From: Escherichia phage OSYSP | DNA length: 64,000 nt | Sequence record: MF402939 | Strand: one strand, 5' to 3' | Part shown: piece by piece, positions 9,874 through 47,851 of the stretch | Layout: each line of letters opens with the position of its first letter | Position numbering within the stretch: the first letter of the stretch is position 1 | Notes under the pieces: model-generated | Databases searched by the model: none | Seen by the model: the letters and a program-made list of their open reading frames with translations, nothing else | What the model was told of the DNA's origin: nothing | Made by a program: the position numbers and the translations under genes

Positions 9874-9951
9874 TGGTGGCTCCCCGAGGATTCGAACCTA
9901 CGTACCTTCCGGTTATGAGCCGGGTGCTCATACCATATGAGCTTGAGAACC
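9874..9951 (-). tRNA. tRNA, anticodon CAT, initiator-like anticodon arm
   Basis: Acceptor GGTTCTC/GGGAGCC, anticodon arm CCGG-CTCATAA-CCGG followed by GAAGG as in initiator tRNA; T-stem imperfect; CCA encoded. Confidence 0.45.
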
Positions 9952-10586: not shown

Positions 10587-10616
10587 ATTAGATTCCTCTC
10601 TCAAATTTATAAATAT

Positions 10617-10645
10617 ATTATACAGAGAATTTAGCATTCAAGCAA
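10617..10645 (-). promoter_or_regulatory. sigma70-type early promoter (TTGCTT-17-TATAAT) with downstream ATAAATTTGAGAGAGG box
   Basis: Consensus hexamers and conserved downstream element on minus strand. Confidence 0.65.
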
Positions 10646-14152: not shown

Positions 14153-14230
14153 CTTACCGACCGTAGGATTCGAACCTACATCTTCCACCAGTTACGGCTT
14201 GATAATACCAATTATACTAGGACGGCAGTG
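14153..14230 (-). tRNA. tRNA-like element, non-canonical (no foldable anticodon stem)
   Basis: T-arm GTAGG-TTCGAAT-CCTAC, D-loop-like AATTGGTA, acceptor GCCGTCC/GGTCGGT with one mismatch; no anticodon arm can be formed. Confidence 0.3.
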
Positions 14231-17258: not shown

Positions 17259-17298
17259 ATTTGTTTTCCTTTTATTGTTTTCTCAAATTTATGAATAT

Positions 17299-17327
17299 AT
17301 TATACAGAATTTTGGAGCCGGAAGCAA
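17299..17327 (-). promoter_or_regulatory. sigma70-type promoter (TTGCTT-17-TATAAT)
   Basis: Consensus hexamers on minus strand. Confidence 0.6.
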
Positions 17328-23407: not shown

Positions 23408-25738
23408 TTATAGCTGGCAACCACCAGAAGCACAACCCGCTGCTTCTTCTCCAGCACCTCCACCATTTGCGGTATTGAAGTTAGCATAATACCAAGTTTT
23501 CCACCCATACTTAACAGCAGTCATGAAATCACGAACTACTACTGGGCCAGGAATAATTTCATTCTCAAACTTGGTGTAGTCATAGTACATATTCGTGCTG
23601 ATAGACTGACTGAAGAATTTCTGCATAGTTGCTACCCATTTGATCCACTCGATACGATCTACATCATAAGCCAATTTATAGCTCATTAACGTTTCCCAAT
23701 CGGTTGCACCTGGAGCAATTGCAATTACTTTATTTACTGCACTACCTTTGATAGATACAATCTTACGAGGTGGTTCGATAGAGTTAGTAACACCTAACAG
23801 AACAGAAGAACTTTCTCCCGGCATCTGAGCAGTCAGAACAGAGTTACGCATACCATATTTCAGAATATCTGCACGCAGAGACTCCCAATCCATTTCTAGA
23901 CCTACGGATACCAGTTCATCAACAGTTTTCTTGTACGTGTCGATTACCAGAATTCCTTTAGATGGTTTAGTACGATCAAACCACTCACATGCGCCCTGTT
24001 CTTTAGCCAGGCGTACGGAGGCTTTATGCAGGAAGTAAGATAGTTTTTCAGCCTCACGGTGGATCCAGTTACGAGCTTCAATACCTTCGTAAGCCAGACC
24101 TTCTGCTGCCATTGCACCTGCTGCGTTCATTAGTCCAATACCAACATTACGACGTTTCTTAGCTGTATATTCCATAGTTGGGAACGGATAATCCTGAATT
24201 TCAATAATTGTATCAACGAATTTCAGAAGGATATAGCAAGTTTTTTCCCACTCAGCCAGAGATTCCATGCGCCCAAGTACAACACCACCTAAGTTACACA
24301 GAGATACTTCACCAATATCCTCCGGCTTCATTTGATCAAGCTGCTCTTTTGTCTTGTACAGCTCTGTAATGTGATGGAACGGGCGTGTAGGCTGAGTAAT
24401 CTCAACACAAAGGTTTGTCATACGGATCGGATCAAGGAAGTTACCGTGACGATTAGATTCCCCGATGTGATGAGCATACATACGTCCTGTTTCCATTCGG
24501 ATACGTAGCCAAGTATCTAGGATTTCTTTTGCAGAGACTTTAGGAGCTGCTGGAACTGTTTTTCCTTCGTGGTCGATCTTTGTAAGAGATGCCACACGTT
24601 TCTCCGCTGCCACGTAGGTTTCTTCAAATTTGGCCTCGTCATCACTATAAAACGCTTCATGAACTTCTGGAGCATAGAAGTATGACATTAGCGTAATATC
24701 TTCGTTTTTAAGATAACGTTTTAACAAAAGATTGTTAAAGCTCAGAGAATAATCCATCTTATCGATTTTATTCTCATCTGTAGCACGTTGTTGCTTAACC
24801 TGCATCAATTGAATGATTTCAGGGTCGAAGTACGGATAAGACACTGTGGCAGAACCACCACGAGTTTGCTGGGTATTGGCCTTTACTGAGCGGTCAATGT
24901 GTCGATAATATGGCAGTTTTCCGGAATGCGGGAATGCCCCATTTCGCACCGGATCAGCAATTGATCGGCTTTCAAGATGATACCCGATTCCCGCCCTGGC
25001 TGCGACCATTTTGAAGACGATGTGCTCGGCGGTGTCGATTGAATCCAACGTGTCAGTGGAATCCACGAGGCAGCAACTAGCAAATCCACGGTCACTAGAG
25101 CGCAGACCAACCAGTGGCGGCGTAGGAACGTTGATTTTGTGGAGTGACATTGCGTTGTAGAGGTCGATTGCATCTAGAATTGTCCAGTTAGGTTGAGATA
25201 GCATCGCCATTGCCATACCCATGTAGGCAAACTGCGGAGTTTCATAAATTTCACCAGTGGCTATGTTACGACGGGAATACTTATCAAAGAACTGCTTCAG
25301 TCCACCACTAGTAAAAAGTCGGTCACGATCATGGTCGATAACCTGATTCAGAGCTTCAAATTGCTCATCGGTAATCCATGCACTCATGTCTTCCCATGCA
25401 CCTACGCTAACCATATGGTCATGGAAGAAGCGTAGAGAAGGTGGTTCGAAAGAGTCATAAAGGCGCTTACGCATTTGCGCAAGACGTAATTCCTTTGCTG
25501 GCACATCGTATGCTGGATTATCTTTAATAAGACTTTCAGCAGCTTTAATTAATGCATCCATCAGAGTGTCGGAATCTACAACCCCTTTAGGCAGAGTTTT
25601 TTGAGCAGCCATAGTAATGGCTGACCAACTTACATCAACTGTTTTGCAACCATACTCTGCCCAACCATTGAGTTTTTCAGGAGCAAAGTCTTCTACAGTA
25701 CCGTCACGTTTAATTACTTTTTCAATGCGATGGCTCAT
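23408..25738 (-). CDS. nrdA: ribonucleotide reductase class Ia alpha subunit
   Basis: Start set at ATG (MSHRIEKVIKRDG, ATP-cone) with AAGGA SD; the longer track ORF (to 25843) would start upstream of the apparent promoter; C-terminal Cys pair. Confidence 0.85.
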   Translation of the reverse strand: MSHRIEKVIKRDGTVEDFAPEKLNGWAEYGCKTVDVSWSAITMAAQKTLPKGVVDSDTLMDALIKAAESLIKDNPAYDVPAKELRLAQMRKRLYDSFEPPSLRFFHDHMVSVGAWEDMSAWITDEQFEALNQVIDHDRDRLFTSGGLKQFFDKYSRRNIATGEIYETPQFAYMGMAMAMLSQPNWTILDAIDLYNAMSLHKINVPTPPLVGLRSSDRGFASCCLVDSTDTLDSIDTAEHIVFKMVAARAGIGYHLESRSIADPVRNGAFPHSGKLPYYRHIDRSVKANTQQTRGGSATVSYPYFDPEIIQLMQVKQQRATDENKIDKMDYSLSFNNLLLKRYLKNEDITLMSYFYAPEVHEAFYSDDEAKFEETYVAAEKRVASLTKIDHEGKTVPAAPKVSAKEILDTWLRIRMETGRMYAHHIGESNRHGNFLDPIRMTNLCVEITQPTRPFHHITELYKTKEQLDQMKPEDIGEVSLCNLGGVVLGRMESLAEWEKTCYILLKFVDTIIEIQDYPFPTMEYTAKKRRNVGIGLMNAAGAMAAEGLAYEGIEARNWIHREAEKLSYFLHKASVRLAKEQGACEWFDRTKPSKGILVIDTYKKTVDELVSVGLEMDWESLRADILKYGMRNSVLTAQMPGESSSVLLGVTNSIEPPRKIVSIKGSAVNKVIAIAPGATDWETLMSYKLAYDVDRIEWIKWVATMQKFFSQSISTNMYYDYTKFENEIIPGPVVVRDFMTAVKYGWKTWYYANFNTANGGGAGEEAAGCASGGCQL

Positions 25739-25820
25739 TTGGCTTTCCTTTTTATAGTTATCAGGATTTAGGAAATAGTTTACTTTATTCTCAGTCATTT
25801 GGCAAATAAAATTTTCTGAT

Positions 25821-25856
25821 AGAAAAGGCCCGAGTATTTTCATACCCAGGCCTTAT
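25821..25856 (-). terminator. rho-independent terminator upstream of nrdA
   Basis: 10-bp stem (two G-U) plus T-run on minus strand after stop of CDS 25860-26102. Confidence 0.45.
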
Positions 25857-25859
25857 GTA

Positions 25860-26102
25860 TTACCAGTCTAGCTTTTTAGCTTGTTCAATTACTTTAGCTC
25901 TAGCTACTTCTTTTAATAGAATATCTATGGAAGTGCTTAGCTCATTATAGTTGAACGGTTTATTCGGATTTGAGGTTACAATTTTCCACGCTAGGGTAGT
26001 CTTAGGACTTTCTTCCCCTTCCTTACGTGTAATCATATTAGCAGCACTCAGTGAAGTACGATGTATTTTAGTTTTACGGTGTAGGTGTACGACGTTTCCC
26101 AT
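25860..26102 (-). CDS. hypothetical protein (80 aa)
   Basis: Track ORF 25860-26171 trimmed to ATG located 1 nt after phoH stop. Confidence 0.5.
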   Translation of the reverse strand: MGNVVHLHRKTKIHRTSLSAANMITRKEGEESPKTTLAWKIVTSNPNKPFNYNELSTSIDILLKEVARAKVIEQAKKLDW

Positions 26103-26103
26103 A

Positions 26104-26865
26104 TTACACCTTCCCCATGTCTTTAAAAATATCGTAGAATGCTTTAGACTCAGCAGAACGAACGTTATCAATCAATTCGATCATTGAGAATGGAGCATTT
26201 TCATATTTCTCATAAACTTCCATAAGAAGTGCTAGACCTGAGTCACCTTTAATGTCTTTCTGAGCTATATCTCCGCAGATAATTAAACGGCAGTCTTGTC
26301 CCACACGAGTTAGGAGACAAACCATTGCCTCAACGGAAATATTCTGAGCTTCATCGACAATTACATAGGAGTTGTTGAAAGTTCTGCCACGAGCATGTTC
26401 TATAGCCAAAAATTTAATTTTCTGACGTTCGACATATCCCTTATAGGCATGATCACCGATGGCCCATTTCATACCATCAGCTATTGGCTCCAACCAAGGC
26501 TCTAGCTTTTCTGCTAGATCACCAGGAAGCATACCAAGAGACTTACCTAGAGGTTCATTAGGACGTACGAGAATCACTTGCTCAATATCTGAGTGAATGT
26601 CTACGAGTTCCTGAGCTGCAAGAACGGACGGGATAAAGGTTTTACCGGTACCTGGCTCACCGATGCCCACAGTCACTGTGTTGTTCTTGATCATATTGAT
26701 ATATGATTTTTGCTCTCGGTTTTTACCTACTAGGGATTTAGCAACTGGGTTAGCGTAATCATTAGAAAAATCAGCCTGAATTACGTTATTCTCATATTTG
26801 TTGCCACGCTTTCTTGAACCATTGCGGTTCTCTCTTTTTTGACGTGCTTTTCCCATAAATAACAC
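26104..26865 (-). CDS. phoH: PhoH-like ATPase
   Basis: 253 aa; Walker A GEPGTGKT and PhoH-like core; AGGAG SD. Confidence 0.85.
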   Translation of the reverse strand: MLFMGKARQKRENRNGSRKRGNKYENNVIQADFSNDYANPVAKSLVGKNREQKSYINMIKNNTVTVGIGEPGTGKTFIPSVLAAQELVDIHSDIEQVILVRPNEPLGKSLGMLPGDLAEKLEPWLEPIADGMKWAIGDHAYKGYVERQKIKFLAIEHARGRTFNNSYVIVDEAQNISVEAMVCLLTRVGQDCRLIICGDIAQKDIKGDSGLALLMEVYEKYENAPFSMIELIDNVRSAESKAFYDIFKDMGKV

Positions 26866-26929
26866 TCCTATAGTGTACTTCGCTAACAGAGGATCAACAA
26901 AAAGATCTTGTTTATCAACTTACAAATAT

Positions 26930-26958
26930 ATTATACCAGTATATGCAGTAAAAAGCAA
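26930..26958 (-). promoter_or_regulatory. sigma70-type early promoter (TTGCTT-17-TATAAT) for phoH-nrd operon
   Basis: Perfect hexamers on minus strand; divergent control region 26866-27226 also holds promoters near 27004-27032 (+) and 27060-27090 (-). Confidence 0.7.
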
Positions 26959-27168
26959 CTACAATTTTAAATAAGCCTATGATATTGCATTTAAATAAAA
27001 AATTTGCTTGCTTTTAATGGGAAATGTATGATATTAGATAATCATTTTATATCGCGTACATAGGCGCGTGATTATACTATTTTAAGTACAAAATAGCAAA
27101 TAAATTTTTTAACAATTTGCTAACCTTTTAGCACAGATCAAAATACAATATCTAAGAGAAAAATTATA

Positions 27169-27198
27169 TTGACATTTGCCCTTGAATAAGCTATAATA
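27169..27198 (+). promoter_or_regulatory. sigma70 promoter (TTGACA-18-TATAAT) for nrdD
   Basis: Perfect -35 and -10 hexamers. Confidence 0.7.
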
Positions 27199-27226
27199 GT
27201 AGTCTTAGTTAGAGAAGGAGAGTATA

Positions 27227-29101
27227 ATGAATCGCAATGATGAACTAAAATACAAGGAAATGCAGTCCTTGATTAGAAACTGCAAAGAAATTATTGAGGG
27301 TTCTGCTGATGAAGAGCTTCTCTTTAATAATGCGAATAAACCCTCTGAGCGTTTCCCTACACAAAGGGATATGCTTGCAGGGGAATTGAGTAAATATCTG
27401 ATTCTAGAAGAAATGCCAATTCAGATTCGAAATGCTCATATGATTGGTGATATTCACTTTCATGATGCTGATTACGCTGCTTTAGGCATGACTAACTGTT
27501 GTCTAGTAGCCCTGGAAGATATGTTGAAAAATGGTATGAAAGTTGGTAATGCTGAAATTAGCACTCCAAATTCTATTACTACTGCGGCTGCTATTACAGC
27601 TCAGATTATCACACAGGTTAGCTCCCATCAGTATGGTGGTACTTCTGTAGACCGATTAGATGAAGTATTGGCTCCTTATGTTCGTAAGTCTTACGATAAG
27701 AATCATGCGTTTGCAAAACGTTGGACTAAGGACGAAGCCAAAGCATCAGTAATGGCTACGGAGATGACTGAAAAAGAAGTCTATGATGCTTGTCAGGGTC
27801 TAGAGTATGAAATCAATACGATGTTCAACTCTAATGGTCAGAGTCCATTTATTACCTTTGGTTTTGGTCTAGGAACTTCTTGGGAATCACGTCTAGTACA
27901 GAAAGCAATACTGAAAGTACGTATGGATGGCCTAGGCATCAATAAACGTACAGCTATCTTTCCTAAACTGGTGTTTGTTCTGCGCGATGGCGTAAATATG
28001 AAGCCAGGAGATGTTAATTATGACATCAAGAAGTTAGCTATGAAATGTACTGCTGAACGTATGTATCCAGACTATATCAGCTATGATAAGGTTGTGGAAG
28101 TTACTGGTGACTATAAAGTTTCTATGGGCTGCCGTTCATTCCTAGCTGCTGCAGAAGATGGTGAAACTGCCGGTCGTAATAACTTAGGTGTTGTTTCTGT
28201 AAACTTGCCTAGAATTGCTATCGAAGCTGAAGGGAATATTGATCTATTCTTTGATTTGCTTGAGTTACGTGTGGATACAGCGTTAAAAGCATTGGAGTGG
28301 AGGGTTGATCGCTTAAAATACATTCAAGCTAAAGCCGCACCCATCCTCTATATGTCAGGAGCCTTTGGATTACGCTTAGGGCCTGATGAGTATGTATTCG
28401 ATCATTTCTATAACCGTGCTTCTGTATCTCTGGGGTATATTGGTTGCCATGAAATGCTACAGTTCATGTTTGGCAAAGATGTAGATACAATGTCAGATAC
28501 CTGTATTAAGTTTGTACAACGTGTTCTACAGTATATGCGGGATAGAGTGGATCAGAAGAAGGAAGAGACTCAGTTAGGCTATAGTCTGTATGCTACACCA
28601 TCTGAATCCTTATGTGATCGTTTCTGTCGTTTAGATCGTGAATATTTTCCAGAGCATGAAGATATTCTTGGTAAAGGTTACTACACTAACTCACACCACC
28701 TCGATGTGGAGCGTAAGGTTGCTCCAAACGTGAAGTTTGACTATGAATCTAATTTTACTCCAATTGCATCTGGTGGGTGTATTTCCTACGTGGAATTACC
28801 AGACATGAAACGATTCCCAGATGCACTGGAATGGGTTATTAACTATGCTGCTAGTAAGGTTCATTACTTCGGTATTAATACTCCAGTGGATTCCTGTGGT
28901 AAATGTGGATTCTTAGGTGAAACAGTAGCATCCGAAGATGGATTCAAGTGCCCTATCTGTGGTAATCATGACCCTGAAACTCTTGAAGTAACTCGTCGAG
29001 TTTGTGGGTATCTTGGAAATCCAGGCGCTCGTCCATTTAACCCAGGCAAACAACATGAGGTTATGGGCAGGGTGAAACATCAGGATATTCGAGCTAAATA
29101 A
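27227..29101 (+). CDS. nrdD: anaerobic ribonucleoside-triphosphate reductase (class III)
   Basis: 624 aa; C-terminal glycyl-radical motif RVCGYLG and preceding Cys cluster (CGKCGF...CPICG); AAGGAGAG SD. Confidence 0.85.
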   Translation: MNRNDELKYKEMQSLIRNCKEIIEGSADEELLFNNANKPSERFPTQRDMLAGELSKYLILEEMPIQIRNAHMIGDIHFHDADYAALGMTNCCLVALEDMLKNGMKVGNAEISTPNSITTAAAITAQIITQVSSHQYGGTSVDRLDEVLAPYVRKSYDKNHAFAKRWTKDEAKASVMATEMTEKEVYDACQGLEYEINTMFNSNGQSPFITFGFGLGTSWESRLVQKAILKVRMDGLGINKRTAIFPKLVFVLRDGVNMKPGDVNYDIKKLAMKCTAERMYPDYISYDKVVEVTGDYKVSMGCRSFLAAAEDGETAGRNNLGVVSVNLPRIAIEAEGNIDLFFDLLELRVDTALKALEWRVDRLKYIQAKAAPILYMSGAFGLRLGPDEYVFDHFYNRASVSLGYIGCHEMLQFMFGKDVDTMSDTCIKFVQRVLQYMRDRVDQKKEETQLGYSLYATPSESLCDRFCRLDREYFPEHEDILGKGYYTNSHHLDVERKVAPNVKFDYESNFTPIASGGCISYVELPDMKRFPDALEWVINYAASKVHYFGINTPVDSCGKCGFLGETVASEDGFKCPICGNHDPETLEVTRRVCGYLGNPGARPFNPGKQHEVMGRVKHQDIRAK

Positions 29102-29143: not shown

Positions 29144-29172
29144 TTGCTTTCAGCTAAAAATTTATGTATAAT
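29144..29172 (+). promoter_or_regulatory. sigma70 promoter (TTGCTT-17-TATAAT) with downstream ATAAATTTGAGGGGAG box
   Basis: Consensus hexamers. Confidence 0.65.
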
Positions 29173-29200
29173 AGATTTATAAATTTGAGGGGAGAAAGAT

Positions 29201-31370: not shown

Positions 31371-31799
31371 ATGTTCAATAATGTATTCTCTAAAGAGGCT
31401 AACCCGATATTGGTTAATTTTTGGCGTACTCTTCCAGCCAACCTGTACAATGAGGCTATTAATGCTCTGAAAATATGGTGTGAGAATAATGAAATCTCCT
31501 TTGCTTTTAAAGGCGAGATTGAGGAGGCTCCCTGTATTGGTTTAATTGTGCAGGTGGAGGATGGTCTTGAAGAGATTGTCGGCTGGAAAGAGTTGGATGA
31601 AATGGGCTTGGTTTTTGCGTTAAACTATAAGCTATTTATGCCCAATAAACACCGTATTGTTGTTAACTATAAAACCAATGAATCTCCTGGTTTTCAAGTT
31701 AATGAACGGTATGGTTGGTCTTACTCACCAGAAGAAGTAAATGATGGTATCCAAAAACTTCGTCGTTTTGGTTATCAAATTCCGGGTTTAACCGCCTAA
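31371..31799 (+). CDS. hypothetical protein, paralog A (142 aa)
   Basis: ORF track; AAGGTG SD; shares PCIG...W.ELD.MGL..ALN..LF.P motif with next ORF. Confidence 0.6.
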   Translation: MFNNVFSKEANPILVNFWRTLPANLYNEAINALKIWCENNEISFAFKGEIEEAPCIGLIVQVEDGLEEIVGWKELDEMGLVFALNYKLFMPNKHRIVVNYKTNESPGFQVNERYGWSYSPEEVNDGIQKLRRFGYQIPGLTA

Positions 31800-31808
31800 G
31801 GGGGCACA

Positions 31809-32207
31809 ATGGAACAAGTATATTGGCGTCAGATTGATCCTAGTTTGGTGAAGCGTGCGGAGAAGCTGCTACAACGTTGGTTGGGGGTAAGACAAGCCTC
31901 CTTCACTTTTCCGGAGCAGCAAATAGACGATCCCTGTATTGGTGTTTTCCTATCAGGCTACGCTAGGGAATGGGAATGGGAATTGGATTGGAATGAGTTG
32001 TCTGCTATGGGTTTAATTGTTGCCCTAAATTTCTCTTTGTTCCATCCACGTGGTTTGGCTATATGTCGTATGCCTGATGATGGTTGTTCACCCCATCTTT
32101 TACAGGTGGAAGATGATATTTGGGAGTACACTCCAGATATTCTCAAAGAAGCTAAAGAACAGTTAAACCATGTTGGGATCTATGTTCCAGGCTTGAATGA
32201 TGAATGA
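31809..32207 (+). CDS. hypothetical protein, paralog B (132 aa)
   Basis: ORF track; AAGGGGG SD; similar to preceding ORF. Confidence 0.6.
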   Translation: MEQVYWRQIDPSLVKRAEKLLQRWLGVRQASFTFPEQQIDDPCIGVFLSGYAREWEWELDWNELSAMGLIVALNFSLFHPRGLAICRMPDDGCSPHLLQVEDDIWEYTPDILKEAKEQLNHVGIYVPGLNDE

Positions 32208-32231
32208 TTTTTATTAGCTGAACTCTGATTA

Positions 32232-32256
32232 CCGAGTCATTTTGGCTCGGTTTTAT
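32232..32256 (+). terminator. possible intrinsic terminator
   Basis: CCGAG-loop-CTCGG hairpin followed by TTTTAT. Confidence 0.35.
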
Positions 32257-32298
32257 CCGTACTCAAGACCAATGATAGCACCATCCGGAAAATTTTAC

Positions 32299-32327
32299 TT
32301 GCAGGATGCCCAAAATCTTGATATAAT
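32299..32327 (+). promoter_or_regulatory. sigma70 promoter (TTGCAG-17-TATAAT, extended -10 TGATATAAT)
   Basis: Hexamers read directly; followed by about 500 nt of ORF-free leader. Confidence 0.6.
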
Positions 32328-32826
32328 ATTTATATTGAATTGAGAGACATTAGTAAAAATTGATTTTGCTAATTTTTCTTGTTTACAATCCGCGATACGG
32401 AACAGTTAGGCTGCCCCATTAAGGGTTGTTTTAACTGTTACGTGTTAGTTTTTAAACAAATAATTAATAGAATACTTAGCGATCTGCGTCCCGTAGGAAC
32501 CCTGGTAAGGCCTCGAAGCAACCTAGATAGAGGTGGTTGTGAAGTGAGACGGGAGGAGTGAAAAACTCCGAGACGTGATTCTGTAAGTTATATTGCATCT
32601 AGTATGAGCTAGTATATGAAGCATTAGGTGAGCAAATCTGGCTTAGCGGCCATCCTCAAGGATTTGTGCGGTATAGCAAAGCAGCAGCGCAGCGTGAAAG
32701 TGGAAGTTGCCACCCCACTTCAGTATTTGCGATTAATTTGTTGAGAAATTGACAGTAACAGTTGTTCTATTCTTTCTGAATAGTCCTAAAGAAAACTTAT
32801 TTCATTTCCAATACAGGAGTATTGTT

Positions 32827-35616
32827 GTGTTTTCAATCCTACAAGGTCATGCAGGATTTCATCGCGATTTAGCCACAGGCAATTGGCGAGAAGTTAAGGC
32901 AGAAGATTATCTTTTTGCTAAAAGATTTTCCTCAAAGCATCCTGAAGGTAAACCAGCTTCAATGCCCTTCAAGTTTGATGTAATTGACGAAGTTGATCCT
33001 CAAACCCTAGTAGAAATGCTTCCTCTTATGAGACGTTTAACGTCTGATCCTCATATCGTTGCGGTACGAGGTAGATGTCTTGCACCTAAAAATAATGTGC
33101 GACGTAAGAAGGGCAACTTTAATGTATCTAATCCAAGTCATATAATCGCAATGGATGTGGATGGTATTGTAGATACAGGAGGTTGTAACAAGTTTGATCT
33201 TGTTGGCATGGCGCGTCATATTATTAGGATGTTGAATAGTATTAGTGAGGATATGTTTCCTCTTGATGCAGGGTTTATTGCTCATGCATCGTCTTCGGCT
33301 GGACTAAAACCAGGTATCCGAATGCATTTAATACTAGAATCTAATGTTAAAGTTACACAGGGTCAGATCAAGTTCTTATTTACATCTATCAACGAAAGTA
33401 GTAGACAAAAGTATGGTTTTGATATTGCCGACTTAGCTTATTACTCTTCAGTACAGCTCCACTATTTTGCAGATCCTTTATTTATTGATGGTATAGTTGA
33501 TCCGTTTAAAGCGGAGGATGCTTCACGTCTGGTATTTGTTAAGGGTTCTAAAGTAAATTTACCTAATAATCTAGTTGACTATGAAACAACTAGAGGGGAG
33601 TTTAAAGAGGAATTCTACTCTTTACTCGATCAAATTAAAGGTAAAAAAGCTGCCTCTGATAAAGTAGAAGAAACCATCAGCGAGTTAGAGGAAGCTGAGG
33701 ATGGTGTATATCTACGTATTATTCCTAAACTCTATCACCGAGCACTAGAGGATGGTGTAGATTTTGGTTGGCTAGAGAAGGAGATCCGCCCAGCTTTATC
33801 TGAGTATATTGCAACTAAAGATAATAGTCGTAATATTCAGGATTATTTTAATAACGGTCGAAAACAGGCTCTGAAAGCATTTGTTAATAATTCTAAACGT
33901 GATATACCTGATGTTTTAAAAGGTATTCCACTTAAAAAGCTAGAAACTAACTCTCTAGAAACAGATAATTTCTTGAAATTAAACACTGTGCCACCAGAAG
34001 GTTATATGACTTTTGTAAAAGCAAGTCTAGGTACAGGTAAAACCACGGCGGTTGTGCGTTGGTTAGATTCAGGAGTTATTAAAGGTAATTTCTTAGCAAT
34101 TACCAATACTAGGGCACTGGTGTCTTCAAATGCCAAGAAATTTAGTGCAGGACAATATGATAAGTCTGTAGATATGCTTAATTTTAAGCGTGGTGCTATT
34201 GACCGTATGTCCACAACTATCCACTCTTTACATAAGTTTAAGAGTTTTATTGGTCAAATTGATGCAATCTTTATCGATGAATGTGATGCAGTAATGAATG
34301 ACCTATTATTCGCCCCGGTTGTTAAGCAACGTCGTGAGTGTATTCAGGTTCTTCGTGATATTCTTGCAACTGCAAAAATCATTATACTATCCGATGGTGA
34401 TATTAGTGCGGAAACAATTGAAGCATATGGTTCTTTGATTGAGTTCGATAAACCAGTTGCATTCTATAATCATCACCGTAAGATGCTGTCAAAAGCCCAC
34501 GCTTATGAGTTTCCAGATGAATCCAGTATTTGGGTTGCACTTCAGACTTCTCTAGAGATGGGGGAGAAATCTATTCTAGTATCTGATTGTGGCCCTGATG
34601 AGCTGAATGAGAAGGGTATGGCACTGCGTCGTAACACGGGTGCGTTAGTTAAGGAAATCCATTCAAACTCTACCTCAGATGTGGATATTCGACGTATTCT
34701 GGATTATACAACTAATGAGCTAATTGATCAACAAATTGATTGCTTATTATGTAGTCCATCCGTAACGAGCGGTGTTGACTTCAACTATTTTGATAACGTA
34801 TTCGTTATTACTAGAACCAGTAATCAAGCGCCAAACATGCGTTTTCAAGCAATCAGGCGCGACCGTGGTGCTCAGAATATCTATTATTTTATTGATAAAT
34901 CCACTAGTGGGTTCTCTGCAGGTTCTGAACAATATAATATTGATGAAGGTTGGCTGGAGTTAGCACAGCAATTATACGCACGTCGTAGAGAGCTGGAATC
35001 TAGAAACTATACTAGTACCTTACGGTATTACTTGCTTGATCAGGGTGCAACTATTGATATTTTCAGCGAAAGCTGGGGAACTATTGAAGGTGCTGGTAAA
35101 GAATATACAGAAGAGCGAATCAAAGCTATTCTGCATTCAACTCCAGATTATTGTGCCCCACGTCATGCAGATGCATATGAAGCTAAACTACTTCTTGTTC
35201 GCTATTATCATCTTGAGTCTATTAAAGATGTAACAGTTGAGCATGTTGAACAATATATCAAAGATAAACCGAATGATCGAGCTGCATTCTTCCATAAGAT
35301 GCACGAGATGTTCTGGGAAGATATTAAAAAGTGTTCAAATGTGACCATTAAACCATTCATAGAGGCTCTGAAAGGTAAGAAGAAAGACTTCTTCCTTAAA
35401 ACAGGTCAGAGTGCTAACCCAAAATATGCTAGAATGTATCTTGGTATGATGGGTATTGGTAAGGATATGAACACTGAAAATATCGTAGACTGGTATAGAA
35501 CCTATTGTAAAATCGAGTGTATGCCAATTCCATATAAGTTCATGACTGACGAGGAAAAACATATGCACGATGAAGCAATGTCAGAGCTAGGTGCTAGAAA
35601 TGACAGTGAAGAATAA
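32827..35616 (+). CDS. large DExD-box NTPase/helicase-like protein (putative replication origin-binding type)
   Basis: Walker A LGTGKTT, Walker B IFIDECD, downstream CSPSVTSGVDF; start tentatively GTG at 32827 after AGGAG (track start is ATG 32749). Confidence 0.7.
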   Translation: MFSILQGHAGFHRDLATGNWREVKAEDYLFAKRFSSKHPEGKPASMPFKFDVIDEVDPQTLVEMLPLMRRLTSDPHIVAVRGRCLAPKNNVRRKKGNFNVSNPSHIIAMDVDGIVDTGGCNKFDLVGMARHIIRMLNSISEDMFPLDAGFIAHASSSAGLKPGIRMHLILESNVKVTQGQIKFLFTSINESSRQKYGFDIADLAYYSSVQLHYFADPLFIDGIVDPFKAEDASRLVFVKGSKVNLPNNLVDYETTRGEFKEEFYSLLDQIKGKKAASDKVEETISELEEAEDGVYLRIIPKLYHRALEDGVDFGWLEKEIRPALSEYIATKDNSRNIQDYFNNGRKQALKAFVNNSKRDIPDVLKGIPLKKLETNSLETDNFLKLNTVPPEGYMTFVKASLGTGKTTAVVRWLDSGVIKGNFLAITNTRALVSSNAKKFSAGQYDKSVDMLNFKRGAIDRMSTTIHSLHKFKSFIGQIDAIFIDECDAVMNDLLFAPVVKQRRECIQVLRDILATAKIIILSDGDISAETIEAYGSLIEFDKPVAFYNHHRKMLSKAHAYEFPDESSIWVALQTSLEMGEKSILVSDCGPDELNEKGMALRRNTGALVKEIHSNSTSDVDIRRILDYTTNELIDQQIDCLLCSPSVTSGVDFNYFDNVFVITRTSNQAPNMRFQAIRRDRGAQNIYYFIDKSTSGFSAGSEQYNIDEGWLELAQQLYARRRELESRNYTSTLRYYLLDQGATIDIFSESWGTIEGAGKEYTEERIKAILHSTPDYCAPRHADAYEAKLLLVRYYHLESIKDVTVEHVEQYIKDKPNDRAAFFHKMHEMFWEDIKKCSNVTIKPFIEALKGKKKDFFLKTGQSANPKYARMYLGMMGIGKDMNTENIVDWYRTYCKIECMPIPYKFMTDEEKHMHDEAMSELGARNDSEE

Positions 35617-35842: not shown

Positions 35843-35871
35843 TTGCTTTCAGGAAAATTTTTCTGTATAAT
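35843..35871 (+). promoter_or_regulatory. sigma70 promoter (TTGCTT-17-TATAAT) with ATAAATTTGAGAGAGGAG box
   Basis: Consensus hexamers. Confidence 0.65.
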
Positions 35872-35902
35872 AGATTCATAAATTTGAGAGAGGAGTTTAA
35901 AT

Positions 35903-47766: not shown

Positions 47767-47778
47767 ATGATGTATAAT
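47749..47778 (+). promoter_or_regulatory. sigma70 promoter (TTGGCA-18-TATAAT)
   Basis: Hexamers at end of helicase gene; downstream ATAAATTTGAGAGAGAG box. Confidence 0.5.
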
Positions 47779-47851
47779 ATATACATAAATTTGAGAGAGA
47801 GAAAGTTTCGGATTGATAAGAAAGTCCGAAGCAGAAAAATAAAAATTTTAG

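What the first reader, a model, noticed from the sequence alone, without database searches (positions are those of the whole stretch)
32328..32826. Roughly 500-nt untranslated leader between a consensus promoter and the 930-aa helicase gene
Promoter 32299-32327 is followed by about 500 nt without a credible ORF, GC-richer than the flanks and with several hairpins (for example GGAGTGAAAAACTCC), before the AGGAG-GTG start proposed for the large DExD NTPase. This could be a regulatory leader, a small RNA, or the replication origin next to an origin-binding-type protein.
Basis: seen in the sequence. Interest (0 to 1): 0.45.

Follow-up and report, generated by a model that had tools for sequence, protein, structure and literature searches.

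The report
Large structured RNA leader before D2
The roughly 490-base "empty" stretch between an early promoter and the replication helicase gene (D2) of this T5-like phage encodes a large, intricately folded RNA kept in shape by compensatory mutations across related phages; it matches no described RNA family, and its function is still unknown.

Summary
The window is a T5-like phage. Positions 32208-32826 are the gap between a DUF7415 gene and D2, the "origin-binding" SF2 helicase, whose GTG start at 32827 is confirmed by homologs. A T5-class early promoter (T5P32 in T5 records) should start transcription near 32334.

The gap is not a spacer. It specifies a ~450-nt RNA (32334-32783) with about 14 helices. 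In the type-A lineage, 141 predicted pairs are 94% paired and 37 carry compensatory changes, against 3-10 in slid controls and 0/500 shuffles. G·U pairs make up 15-16% of cells and A·C under 1%, so the fold belongs to the sense strand.

I found no conserved ORF, iterons, tandem repeats, Rfam match or E. coli match. The 5' hairpins and the 3' end are 98-100% conserved. The ~300-nt core exists in at least two forms of equal length and parallel layout (window versus T5/EPS7) that are only ~40% identical.

No terminator separates the RNA from D2. My best reading is an RNA-level element co-transcribed with D2: a leader or processing module closed by a ~30-bp stalk. It could also be an excised stable RNA or a primer RNA. 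A double-stranded DNA origin is not supported.

The parts
32231..32256 (+). Terminator hairpin (ACCGAGTCA-TTT-TGGCTCGGT plus a T run) ending the upstream operon. It isolates the RNA+D2 unit.
   Evidence: Inverted repeat I13. Annotated as a rho-independent terminator in T5, Lindwurm and KEY records. Not called by the generic scan.
32299..32327 (+). T5-class early promoter: -35 TTGCAG, 17-nt spacer, extended -10 TGaTATAAT, with an A/T-rich upstream tract.
   Evidence: T5P32. The class signature TATAAT-N13-TGAGAG is shared with 10598(-), 17280(-), 29167(+), 35866(+) and 47773(+).
32334..32783 (+). The structured RNA element as a whole, from the inferred +1 to the end of hairpin P10. The full leader runs to 32826.
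   Evidence: Covariation and pair counts. Strand asymmetry. Coordinates. The +1 is inferred by analogy with PN25-type promoters, not measured.
32341..32381 (+). P1: 5'-terminal hairpin (GAGAGA.CAUUAGUAAAA / UUUUGCUAAU.UUUCUU). It is 100% identical between the Tequintavirus and Epseptimavirus members compared. Its sequence differs but the hairpin is kept in KpGranit, L080, L081 and AAS21.
   Evidence: A 97-nt optional insertion sits just 3' of it in 51 records.
32385..32429 (+). P2: hairpin with the near-invariant core UAC-RG-AA-CRGU-NNG-GCYG-CY.
   Evidence: Six lineages: 9 core pairs, 4 with compensatory changes such as GC<->AU 3:3.
32432..32476 (+). P3/P3b 5' strand of the long AU-rich closing helix.
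   Evidence: Pairs with 32722-32764. 26+7 pairs, 93% and 91% of cells paired, 4 compensatory pairs (helices 5-6). A long closing helix is also seen in type B, L080 and L081 with unrelated sequences.
32479..32489 (+). P4 5' strand (GCGAUCUGCGU), pairing with 32687-32695 (GCGCAGCGU).
   Evidence: 100% of cells paired, 3 compensatory pairs (helix 7). T5 has CUGUG/CACAG against EPS7 CUGCG/CGCAG. KpGranit has CUAGAA/UUCUAG.
32490..32553 (+). P5 domain: stem CCCGU/ACGGG enclosing two hairpins.
   Evidence: Helices 8-11. 8 of 18 pairs are compensatory and 96-100% of cells are paired.
32555..32569 (+).
   Evidence: Helix 12: 3 of 5 pairs compensatory.
32581..32684 (+). P7-P7a-P8-P8a three-way junction domain. 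It includes the invariant island GGCUUAGCGGCC (32640-32651), a hairpin with a UAGC loop.
   Evidence: Model R1, built from type A only, finds L080 (E 4.6e-8), L081 (5e-6) and KpGranit (0.008) at the matching place. In the combined P7-P9 alignment, 28 of 42 pairs are compensatory against 6-10 in slid controls. The island is unique in the window.
32687..32695 (+). P4 3' strand.
   Evidence: helix 7.
32698..32720 (+). P9 hairpin (AAGUGG / CCACUU) with the loop AAGUUGCCACC, which is similar in several lineages.
   Evidence: Helix 20 and helix 8 (4 of 6 pairs compensatory).
32722..32764 (+). P3/P3b 3' strand.
   Evidence: helices 5-6.
32767..32783 (+). P10 hairpin CUAUUC-UUUCU-GAAUAG. It is identical in types A and B and is not followed by a U run.
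   Evidence: (helix 21). No terminator-like site was called between the RNA and D2.
32816..32829 (+). Shine-Dalgarno AGGAG and the GTG start of D2.
   Evidence: and the RBS annotation in Lindwurm.
32827..35616 (+). D2, also called the 'replication origin binding protein': a 929-aa SF2 helicase similar to herpesvirus UL9 over residues ~390-530.
   Evidence: The T5 protein is a characterised bipolar helicase required for DNA replication (PMC3632103).

Best explanation
The interval is the gene for a ~450-nt highly structured RNA that forms the 5' part of the D2 helicase transcript.

Shown:
- It lies between a T5-class early promoter and the D2 start codon, with no terminator-like site or ORF in between.
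- It folds on the sense strand into P1 and P2 hairpins, then a ~30-bp AU-rich closing helix (P3). P3 encloses a ~270-nt multi-helix core (P4-P9). A small hairpin (P10) follows, ~45 nt before the ribosome-binding site.
- The fold is maintained by compensatory substitutions across at least five sequence lineages.

Inferred:
- It acts as RNA and in cis with D2. Host RNA polymerase transcribes it early, and the folded leader sets how much D2 is made and when.
- The most plausible route uses P3 as a double-strand processing stalk for host RNase III, as in lambda N or T7 early leaders. Cleavage would free a D2 mRNA that begins at the conserved P10 hairpin.
- Alternatively, or in addition, an early phage protein (possibly D2 itself) binds the invariant motifs: the P2 core, the CUUAGCGG hairpin and the P9 loop.

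My confidence that this is a genuine conserved structured RNA is ~0.9. My confidence in the cis-acting leader/processing role is the figure given below.
For: Structure:
- Type-A lineage (window relatives plus Pantoea AAS21 and Erwinia KEY): 141 pairs, 94.1% of cells paired, 37 pairs compensatory against 3-10 with slid partners, 0/500 shuffles.
- T5/EPS7 group: 148 pairs, 6 compensatory, about 13 one-sided G·U-compatible changes, 2 pairs each with one broken cell.
- P7-P9 domain over six lineages: 28 of 42 pairs compensatory.
- Sense strand: 94.1% and 99.8% of cells paired on the + strand, against 78.7% and 84.8% on the - strand.

Link to D2:
- No terminator-like site lies between the RNA and the start codon. 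The promoter and upstream terminator frame the RNA and D2 as one unit.
- The long non-coding gap stays directly upstream of D2 in Tequintavirus, Epseptimavirus, Sugarlandvirus, AAS21/KEY, L080, L081, Proteus and Providencia phages, although the upstream genes differ.

Processing stalk:
- P3 is 26+7 pairs here. It is comparably long in type B, L080 and L081 with unrelated sequences.
- P10 and the region up to the RBS are 86-100% conserved between types.

Not coding. Not DNA repeats.
Against: - A processing site or translational operator does not need ~14 helices. The elaborate, covarying core suggests a function of its own.
- Many D2 homologs (33-37% and 51% identity groups) have no such gap, so D2 does not need it in principle.
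- Proteus phage PM135 has a consensus TTGACA-N18-TATAAT promoter between its long non-coding region and D2. L080 has a TTGATG-N17-TATAAT inside the P3 3' strand. In those phages D2 may therefore be transcribed without the leader.
- The core can be swapped (type A versus type B) without a matching change in D2: STG2 has a type-A RNA 93-99% identical to the window, while its D2 is 77-93% identical.
- No expression, 5'-end or cleavage data were available. The +1 is inferred.
Confidence: 0.42

Rival explanations
1. Excised, stable, trans-acting large non-coding RNA. P3 acts like the processing stalks that flank rRNAs. Cleavage releases the ~270-330-nt core (P4-P9), which works on its own as a protein scaffold, decoy or ribozyme during early infection. 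Its place in front of D2 only supplies a promoter.
For: - About 14 helices with dense covariation. The invariant loops (CUUAGCGG, the P2 core, the P9 loop) look like recognition sites.
- The closing helix brings both ends of the core together.
- The core evolves fast in sequence while length and layout are kept: types A and B are ~40% identical. The structure-only alignment score is 503.5 for the two consensus structures and 463.5 for the T5 minimum-energy fold. Folds of 120 shuffled T5 cores score 331 +/- 33, maximum 432.
- Optional expansion segments occur between P1 and P2.
- Possible separate D2 promoters exist in PM135 and L080.
Against: - The RNA has no terminator of its own.
- No data show a discrete RNA species.
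- It is always adjacent to D2, never elsewhere in the genome. The island is unique in the window and each phage record has one place.
- No similarity to any known large RNA.
Confidence: 0.3
2. Replication origin that works through RNA. The early transcript, or the displaced sense DNA strand, forms a persistent R-loop or folded single strand. That primes leading-strand synthesis and gives the D2 helicase, which needs single-stranded tails to load, an entry site. The analogy is ColE1 RNA II or the T4 ori(uvsY)/ori(34) origins.
For: - D2 is essential for T5 DNA synthesis, is proposed as the initiator, and needs ssDNA tails to start unwinding (PMC3632103).
- The T5 origin has never been mapped at sequence level.
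- The element pairs a strong early promoter with a purine-rich transcript: GC skew +0.26 and AT skew +0.12 at 32500-32700.
- It lies next to the initiator gene, near the middle of complete genomes (59.2 of 120.6 kb in chee24).
- ColE1 RNA II is also a ~550-nt folded pre-primer (my own knowledge).
- A folded displaced sense DNA strand would give the same strand-specific covariation.
Against: - No antisense promoter lies in the leader; the only minus-strand promoter-like site is inside D2.
- There is no GC-skew inflection here.
- Recombineering strand bias in T5 points to mainly unidirectional replication from one genome end (PMC10055335).
- A stably folded RNA competes with hybrid formation.
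- D2 homologs in other lineages lack the element.
Confidence: 0.17
3. Classical double-stranded DNA origin: binding sites for D2/OBP plus an AT-rich unwinding element, as in herpesvirus oriS with UL9.
For: - The neighbouring gene is annotated 'origin binding protein' through weak UL9 similarity in the helicase core.
- AT-rich flanks (GC 0.33) lie at 32200-32500.
Against: - No iteron families, only short two-copy chance-level repeats, and no tandem repeats in the leader.
- The conserved positions are base-paired with compensatory changes and G·U asymmetry. Duplex protein-binding sites do not produce that pattern.
- The UL9 similarity covers the helicase motifs only, not the DNA-binding domain.
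Confidence: 0.04
4. Small protein-coding genes, as some GenBank records annotate (three 'hypothetical proteins' of 33-60 aa), or an N-terminal extension of D2 from the TTG at 32749.
For: Phage SCF and several Klebsiella records annotate 2-3 small CDS here. K36 and mar003J3 annotate longer D2 versions.
Against: - Stop-free stretches differ in frame, strand and position between lineages.
- In-frame stops lie 0-13 codons upstream of the conserved start in 7 lineages, and T5 has no alternative start.
- The substitution pattern follows base pairs, not codons.
Confidence: 0.02

Closest known systems
RNase III-processed early leaders of phages (lambda N leader; T7 early mRNA processing sites)
   Same: A long 5' leader on an early phage transcript made by host RNA polymerase. 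A long double-stranded stem lies upstream of the ribosome-binding site, where it could control translation or stability of the downstream gene.
   Different: Those sites are single ~40-60-nt hairpins. Here a ~30-bp stalk encloses a ~270-nt, ~10-helix covarying core, preceded by two ultra-conserved hairpins. Cleavage has not been shown.
ColE1 RNA II pre-primer and the T4 ori(uvsY)/ori(34) R-loop origins
   Same: A promoter followed by a several-hundred-nt non-coding transcript tied to replication initiation. RNA II also depends on a defined fold.
   Different: No antisense RNA I-type promoter was found, and there is no evidence of a persistent hybrid. The transcript continues into a protein gene. 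There is no sequence or model similarity.
Large structured RNAs of phages and bacteria with unknown function (GOLLD, ROOL, OLE, raiA)
   Same: Size above 400 nt, many helices, strong covariation, phage-encoded, no known function.
   Different: No hit to these or any other Rfam 15 family even at E<=10. The hosts are enterobacteria. The element is embedded in a 5' UTR rather than being free-standing near tRNA genes.
Structured leaders of plasmid replication-initiator genes (IncI-alpha/IncB repZ, R1 repA/CopT)
   Same: A folded leader directly upstream of the gene for the replication initiator, in a position to set its translation rate.
   Different: Those leaders are controlled by antisense RNAs and short leader peptides. 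Neither is seen here, and they are much smaller.
Herpesvirus oriS / UL9 origin-binding protein pair
   Same: The downstream protein shares the UL9-type SF2 helicase core (Pfam PF02399, E 3e-7; PDB UL9 chains E ~1e-5).
   Different: No palindromic or repeated binding boxes are present. Conservation is RNA-like. The UL9 DNA-binding domain is not matched.

Membership tests
Any Rfam 15 family (including RNase P, tmRNA, 6S, group I/II introns, riboswitches, T-box, GOLLD, ROOL, OLE) | Covariance-model score at or near the family's gathering threshold | tested here: not met
   The best hits in 31500-33500 score 13-19 bits with E 1-10, all far below threshold and none inside the core. Five relatives gave nothing in the leader. 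The whole window at gathering level gave only tRNAs.
Conserved structured RNA (generic) | Base pairs maintained by compensatory changes beyond controls | tested here: met
   37 of 141 pairs against 3-10 in slid controls, 0/500 shuffles. 28 of 42 against 6-10. 6 compensatory pairs and only 2 pairs with a broken cell between T5 and EPS7.
Conserved structured RNA (generic) | The structure is specific to the transcribed (sense) strand | tested here: met
   G·U cells 15-16%, A·C cells 0-0.9%. Pairing on the + strand is 94-99.8%, against 79-85% on the - strand.
One RNA family including the T5/EPS7 'type B' core | A model built from one type detects the other at the matching site | tested here: not met
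   R1 and R2 (P7-P9 domain) give only 5.9 bits (E 4.3) at the correct T5 site, and spurious AT-rich hits elsewhere. Support for equivalence is indirect: identical flanks and islands, helix-for-helix parallel RNAalifold predictions, MFE tree distance reached by 3 of 200 shuffles, and a structure-only alignment score with z about 4-5 and 0 of 120 shuffles reaching it.
RNase III processing stalk | At least ~20 bp of nearly continuous double-stranded RNA | tested here: met
   P3 has 26 pairs with two single interruptions, plus 7 pairs in P3b.
RNase III processing stalk | Cleavage by RNase III in vivo or in vitro | not testable with these tools
   No transcript-end data were available.
Free-standing sRNA/ncRNA gene | An intrinsic terminator at its own 3' end | tested here: not met
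   No terminator-like site between 32334 and 32826. P10 is not followed by a U run.
Iteron-type or UL9-type dsDNA replication origin | Repeated or palindromic initiator-binding sites | tested here: not met
   Only two-copy repeats of 8-17 nt at chance level. No tandem repeats in the leader.
Iteron-type or UL9-type dsDNA replication origin | A compositional (GC-skew) switch at the site | tested here: not met
   Cumulative skew rises steadily through 28-54 kb. The minimum is at ~24-27 kb. Skew in this phage also follows transcription direction, so this is a weak test.
ColE1 RNA II-type primer | An antisense regulator promoter in the 5' part, and a persistent RNA-DNA hybrid processed by RNase H | tested here: inconclusive
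   No minus-strand promoter-like site in the leader. Hybrid formation cannot be tested here.
T5 early promoter class | -10 TATAAT, an A/T-rich upstream region, and the conserved downstream TTGAGAG about 13 nt after the -10 | tested here: met
   32322-32346 matches TATAAT-N13-TGAGAG with 0 mismatches, as do 10598(-), 35866(+) and 47773(+). Annotated as an early promoter in T5 records.

The most novel reading that the evidence does not exclude
The element is a new class of large functional RNA that takes part directly in starting T5 DNA replication. It would act either as the primer or R-loop RNA that defines the long-sought T5 origin and loads the D2 helicase, or as an excised RNA partner of D2. 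The interchangeable type-A and type-B cores would then be specificity modules.
Probability: 0.2. Interest if true: 0.88.

Novelty: new variant of a known kind. Interest (0 to 1): 0.62.

Why it matters
T5 is a classical model phage, yet its replication origin and the control of its initiator helicase D2 remain undefined. All three reference T5 records leave this ~470-nt stretch unannotated.

Showing that it encodes a ~450-nt RNA with about 14 covarying helices, one of the larger structured RNAs seen in a coliphage, gives a concrete and testable handle on D2 expression and replication initiation.

It also corrects spurious small-ORF and extended-D2 annotations in many GenBank records. It adds a candidate new family to the short list of large structured phage RNAs. 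The two equal-length cores, ~40% identical and sitting between near-identical flanks, offer a natural experiment in how RNA structure is conserved through recombination.

Tried and rejected
- **Rfam.** Permissive scans of the locus and of five relatives, plus the whole window at gathering level, found nothing.
- **RNase P resemblance.** The P2 core (ACAGAAC..GGCUGC) resembles the RNase P CR-V motif from memory. I rejected this because there was no model hit and no CR-I partner.
- **Pattern scans for new variants.** IMG/VR gave 24 loci, all of known types. Metagenomes gave 20 hits: some were T5-like or Sugarland-like copies of known types, and the rest were chance matches, mostly in GC-rich contigs.
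- **Type B by covariance model.** Models R1 and R2 did not detect the T5-type core.
- **Helix-recovery test.** A positional test of type-A helices in T5 and KpGranit was weak. It was also flawed because mafft --keeplength dropped residues, so I did not use it as evidence.
- **Tree-edit distance.** The MFE comparison was only modestly significant, with 3 of 200 shuffles as close.
- **RNA type versus D2 N-terminal sequence.** I found no clean linkage. T5 differs from the window over a block from 32430 to 34400, but STG2 has a type-A RNA with a diverged D2 5' end.
- **Complementarity to the D2 start region.** Short matches exist (for example 32554-64 against 32830-40). They fall at different places in different lineages, so I treated them as chance.
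- **D2 N-terminal 390 aa.** There was no Pfam or PDB sequence match. Single-sequence AlphaFold gave pLDDT 34, which is unusable. The idea of an AEP-primase fold, based on the AMDVDG and SSSAGIKPGIRxH motifs, remains untested.
- **E. coli genomes.** No similarity.
- **Literature.** Searches found no description of this RNA. Rad (the T5 anti-retron factor) is a protein in the tRNA region, and the DRT9 escaper mutations map elsewhere. Bourguignon 1976 was not available.

Full report
**Context.** The window is a T5-like phage. It carries 23 tRNA genes at 0.9-13.7 kb. The query region is 98-99% identical to Tequintavirus genomes such as chee24 and Lindwurm, and 522 phage records match. The finding lies between a 132-aa DUF7415 gene (31809-32207) and a 929-aa gene (32827-35616). 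That gene is D2, also called the "replication origin binding protein" of T5. It matches herpesvirus UL9 only in the SF2 helicase core (Pfam PF02399 E 3e-7, PDB UL9 chains E ~1e-5). The T5 protein is a biochemically characterised bipolar helicase. Its amber mutants make no DNA, and it is proposed, not proven, to be the replication initiator (PMC3632103).

**The observation.**
- A terminator hairpin (32231-32251) ends the upstream operon.
- TTGCAG-N17-TGaTATAAT (32299-32327) is the promoter that T5 records call "putative early promoter T5P32".
- The promoter carries the class signature TATAAT-N13-TGAGAG. Five other sites in the window share it, one of them PN25-like at 35866.
- The generic consensus scan missed the promoter because its -35 is weak.
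- By analogy with PN25 (my own knowledge), transcription should start at A32334. That gives a 493-nt leader.
- The leader has no credible ORF. It is GC-richer than its flanks and folds better than shuffles, z = -2.75.
- The "ATG at 32749" is a TTG.
- Homologs settle the start codon. The N-terminus (M/V/L)F(S/T)ILxGH is conserved in ten lineages, and in-frame stops lie 0-13 codons upstream in seven of them.

**What it is.** Aligning the gap from relatives gave an unusual pattern.
- The first ~110 nt of the transcript and the last ~50 nt before the AT-rich RBS region are 98-100% identical, even between the Tequintavirus and Epseptimavirus genera.
- The neighbouring coding DNA of those genera is only 62-94% identical.
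- The ~300-nt centre exists in two forms of the same length that are ~37-46% identical. Type A is the window; type B is T5 and EPS7.
- Both forms share the short islands GAUCUG, GGCUUAGCGGCC and CAGC.
- More diverged versions sit at the same place in Pantoea phage AAS21 and Erwinia phage KEY, Klebsiella Sugarlandvirus, and two IMG/VR genomes, L080 and L081.

**Independent folds agree.** RNAalifold was run separately on the type-A and type-B groups. It returned the same helix-by-helix layout at nearly the same positions. In order, the helices are:
- P1, the 5'-terminal hairpin.
- P2, with a near-invariant core.
- P3, a long AU-rich closing helix.
- P4, P5 (with sub-hairpins) and P6.
- P7, P7a and P8, a three-way junction. 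It ends in P8a, the hairpin with a UAGC loop that holds the invariant island.
- P9 and P10.

**Covariation.**
- In the type-A alignment (window-type variants plus AAS21 and KEY) there are 141 pairs. 94.1% of cells are paired and 37 pairs have changes on both sides. Slid-partner controls give 3-10, and 0 of 500 shuffles reach any measure.
- Between T5 and EPS7, which differ at few positions, 6 pairs changed on both sides and about 13 changed to or from G·U. Only 2 pairs each have one broken cell.
- A covariance model of the P7-P9 domain, built from type A alone, found L080 (E 4.6e-8), L081 (5e-6) and KpGranit (0.008) at the matching position. In the resulting alignment 28 of 42 pairs are compensatory, against 6-10 in controls.
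- The P2 core covaries across six lineages.
- G·U pairs are 15-16% of cells and A·C under 1%. The fold therefore exists on the sense strand only: 94-99.8% paired, against 79-85% on the other strand.
- This is the signature of an RNA, or formally of the sense single strand. It is not the signature of duplex DNA.

**Limits of the structural claim.**
- The models built from type A do not detect the type-B core.
- A-to-B equivalence therefore rests on indirect evidence. The flanks and islands are identical, and the independent predictions run in parallel.
- The tree-edit distance between the MFE structures was reached by 3 of 200 shuffles.
- The structure-only alignment score is 503.5 for the two consensus structures and 463.5 for the T5 MFE structure. 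Folds of 120 shuffled T5 cores score 331 +/- 33, with a maximum of 432.
- Homology of the even longer non-coding regions upstream of D2 in Proteus, Providencia and Vibrio phages is only hinted at. The hints are a CUUAGCGG hairpin and a truncated P2-like motif.
- Many distant D2 homologs have no such gap at all.

**What it is not.**
- It matches no Rfam family.
- It is not coding.
- It has no iterons or tandem repeats.
- It is not at a GC-skew turning point.
- It is not related to E. coli sequence.
- It is not described in the papers I could search.

**How it most likely works.**

*Shown.* The promoter, the RNA and D2 form one unit bounded upstream by a terminator. No terminator-like site was detected between the RNA and the D2 start. 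The RNA-D2 adjacency persists where upstream synteny does not.

*Inferred.* The RNA acts in cis as the D2 leader. The ~30-bp P3 helix is long enough to be a host RNase III substrate. Cleavage would leave a D2 mRNA headed by the invariant P10 hairpin, as in the lambda N and T7 early leaders. The invariant single-stranded motifs may bind an early protein. I give this reading 0.42.

*The main rival (0.30)* is that the core is released as a stable trans-acting RNA. Its complexity argues for this, as do the optional expansion segments between P1 and P2 and the possible D2-proximal promoters in PM135 and L080.

*A primer or R-loop origin RNA (0.17)* fits what is known of D2, which needs ssDNA tails and is essential for replication. 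It also fits the purine-rich transcript. It lacks any positive signal, and it sits badly with recombineering evidence for mainly end-initiated, unidirectional T5 replication (PMC10055335).

*A duplex-DNA origin (0.04) and small ORFs (0.02)* are disfavoured.

**Mosaicism.** Against T5, the window is 94-100% identical on both sides. It diverges over one block, 32430-34400, which covers the RNA core and the first ~1.6 kb of D2. Phage STG2 shows the opposite pattern: a type-A RNA 93-99% identical to the window inside flanks that are 67-78% identical. The RNA core therefore moves between lineages by recombination at its conserved ends.

**Verdict.** The origin idea survives only in its RNA-primed form. 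It is a previously unannotated large structured RNA with no Rfam match, in a classical model phage. Its function is unresolved but directly testable.

Noticed in passing
L006 1363-1459 (Salmonella phage Kenya-K36); corresponds to window ~32372/32373: A 97-nt optional insertion lies between hairpins P1 and P2 of the leader RNA, flanked by a TTTTTCTT direct repeat. It is present in 51 phage records, one place each, on both type-A and type-B backgrounds. It contains its own 8-bp hairpin (AUUUACGG/CCGUAAAU). AAS21 and KEY carry ~22 extra nt at the same spot. It looks like an RNA expansion segment or a tiny mobile insert.
   Followed up: partly
L005 716-1168 (phage mar003J3); phage S132 (hit H77): Free-standing HNH homing-endonuclease genes are inserted immediately upstream of the leader in some relatives. 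In mar003J3 the leader is preceded by a different -35/spacer sequence.
   Followed up: no
window 35866-35890 (+); also 10598-10622 (-), 17280-17304 (-), 29167-29191 (+), 47773-47797 (+): Further T5-class early promoters with the TATAAT-N13-TGAGAG signature. The one at 35866 (TATAATAGATTCATAAATTTGAGAG) looks, from memory, like the classical PN25 promoter. It sits just downstream of D2.
   Followed up: partly
window 32827-33026: The first ~200 nt of D2 are only 76-78% identical to every relative compared (T5, HdH2, EPS7-like, STG2). Most of the gene is 83-100% identical, apart from a second dip to 70-82% at about 33827-34026. This is a local hypervariable N-terminus next to the leader.
   Followed up: no
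window 32360-32389 (+): A second promoter-like site (TTGATT-N18-TACAAT) lies inside the ultra-conserved P1/P2 stretch. It is within chance expectation for the scan, but it could give a transcript lacking P1.
   Followed up: no
L035 ~1935-1965 (Proteus phage PM135); L080 ~1505-1533: Consensus-like promoters (TTGACA-N18-TATAAT in PM135; TTGATG-N17-TATAAT in L080) lie between the long non-coding region and D2. D2 may therefore be transcribed independently of the upstream RNA in those phages.
   Followed up: no
window 9877-9951 (-) and 14155-14226 (-): Two tRNA-model hits above the Rfam threshold (40.3 and 35.5 bits) that ARAGORN did not call. They may be degenerate or unusual tRNA genes in the T5 tRNA region.
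   Followed up: no
window ~24000-28000: The cumulative GC-skew minimum of the window lies here, where the skew changes sign and, judging from the strand of the tRNA genes, gene orientation flips from - to +. It is a better compositional candidate for a replication or transcription divergence point than the leader.
   Followed up: no
window 31371-31799 and 31809-32207: Two adjacent paralogous genes, each matching DUF7415 (two stretches per protein, E ~1e-31), lie directly upstream of the leader, after a Sir2-like gene. Their function is unknown.
   Followed up: no
L002 1643-2145 (phage SCF) and many Klebsiella records: Automatic annotation places 2-3 'hypothetical protein' CDS of 33-60 aa inside the structured RNA. 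Other records extend D2 upstream to TTG starts. Both are very likely mis-annotations.
   Followed up: yes
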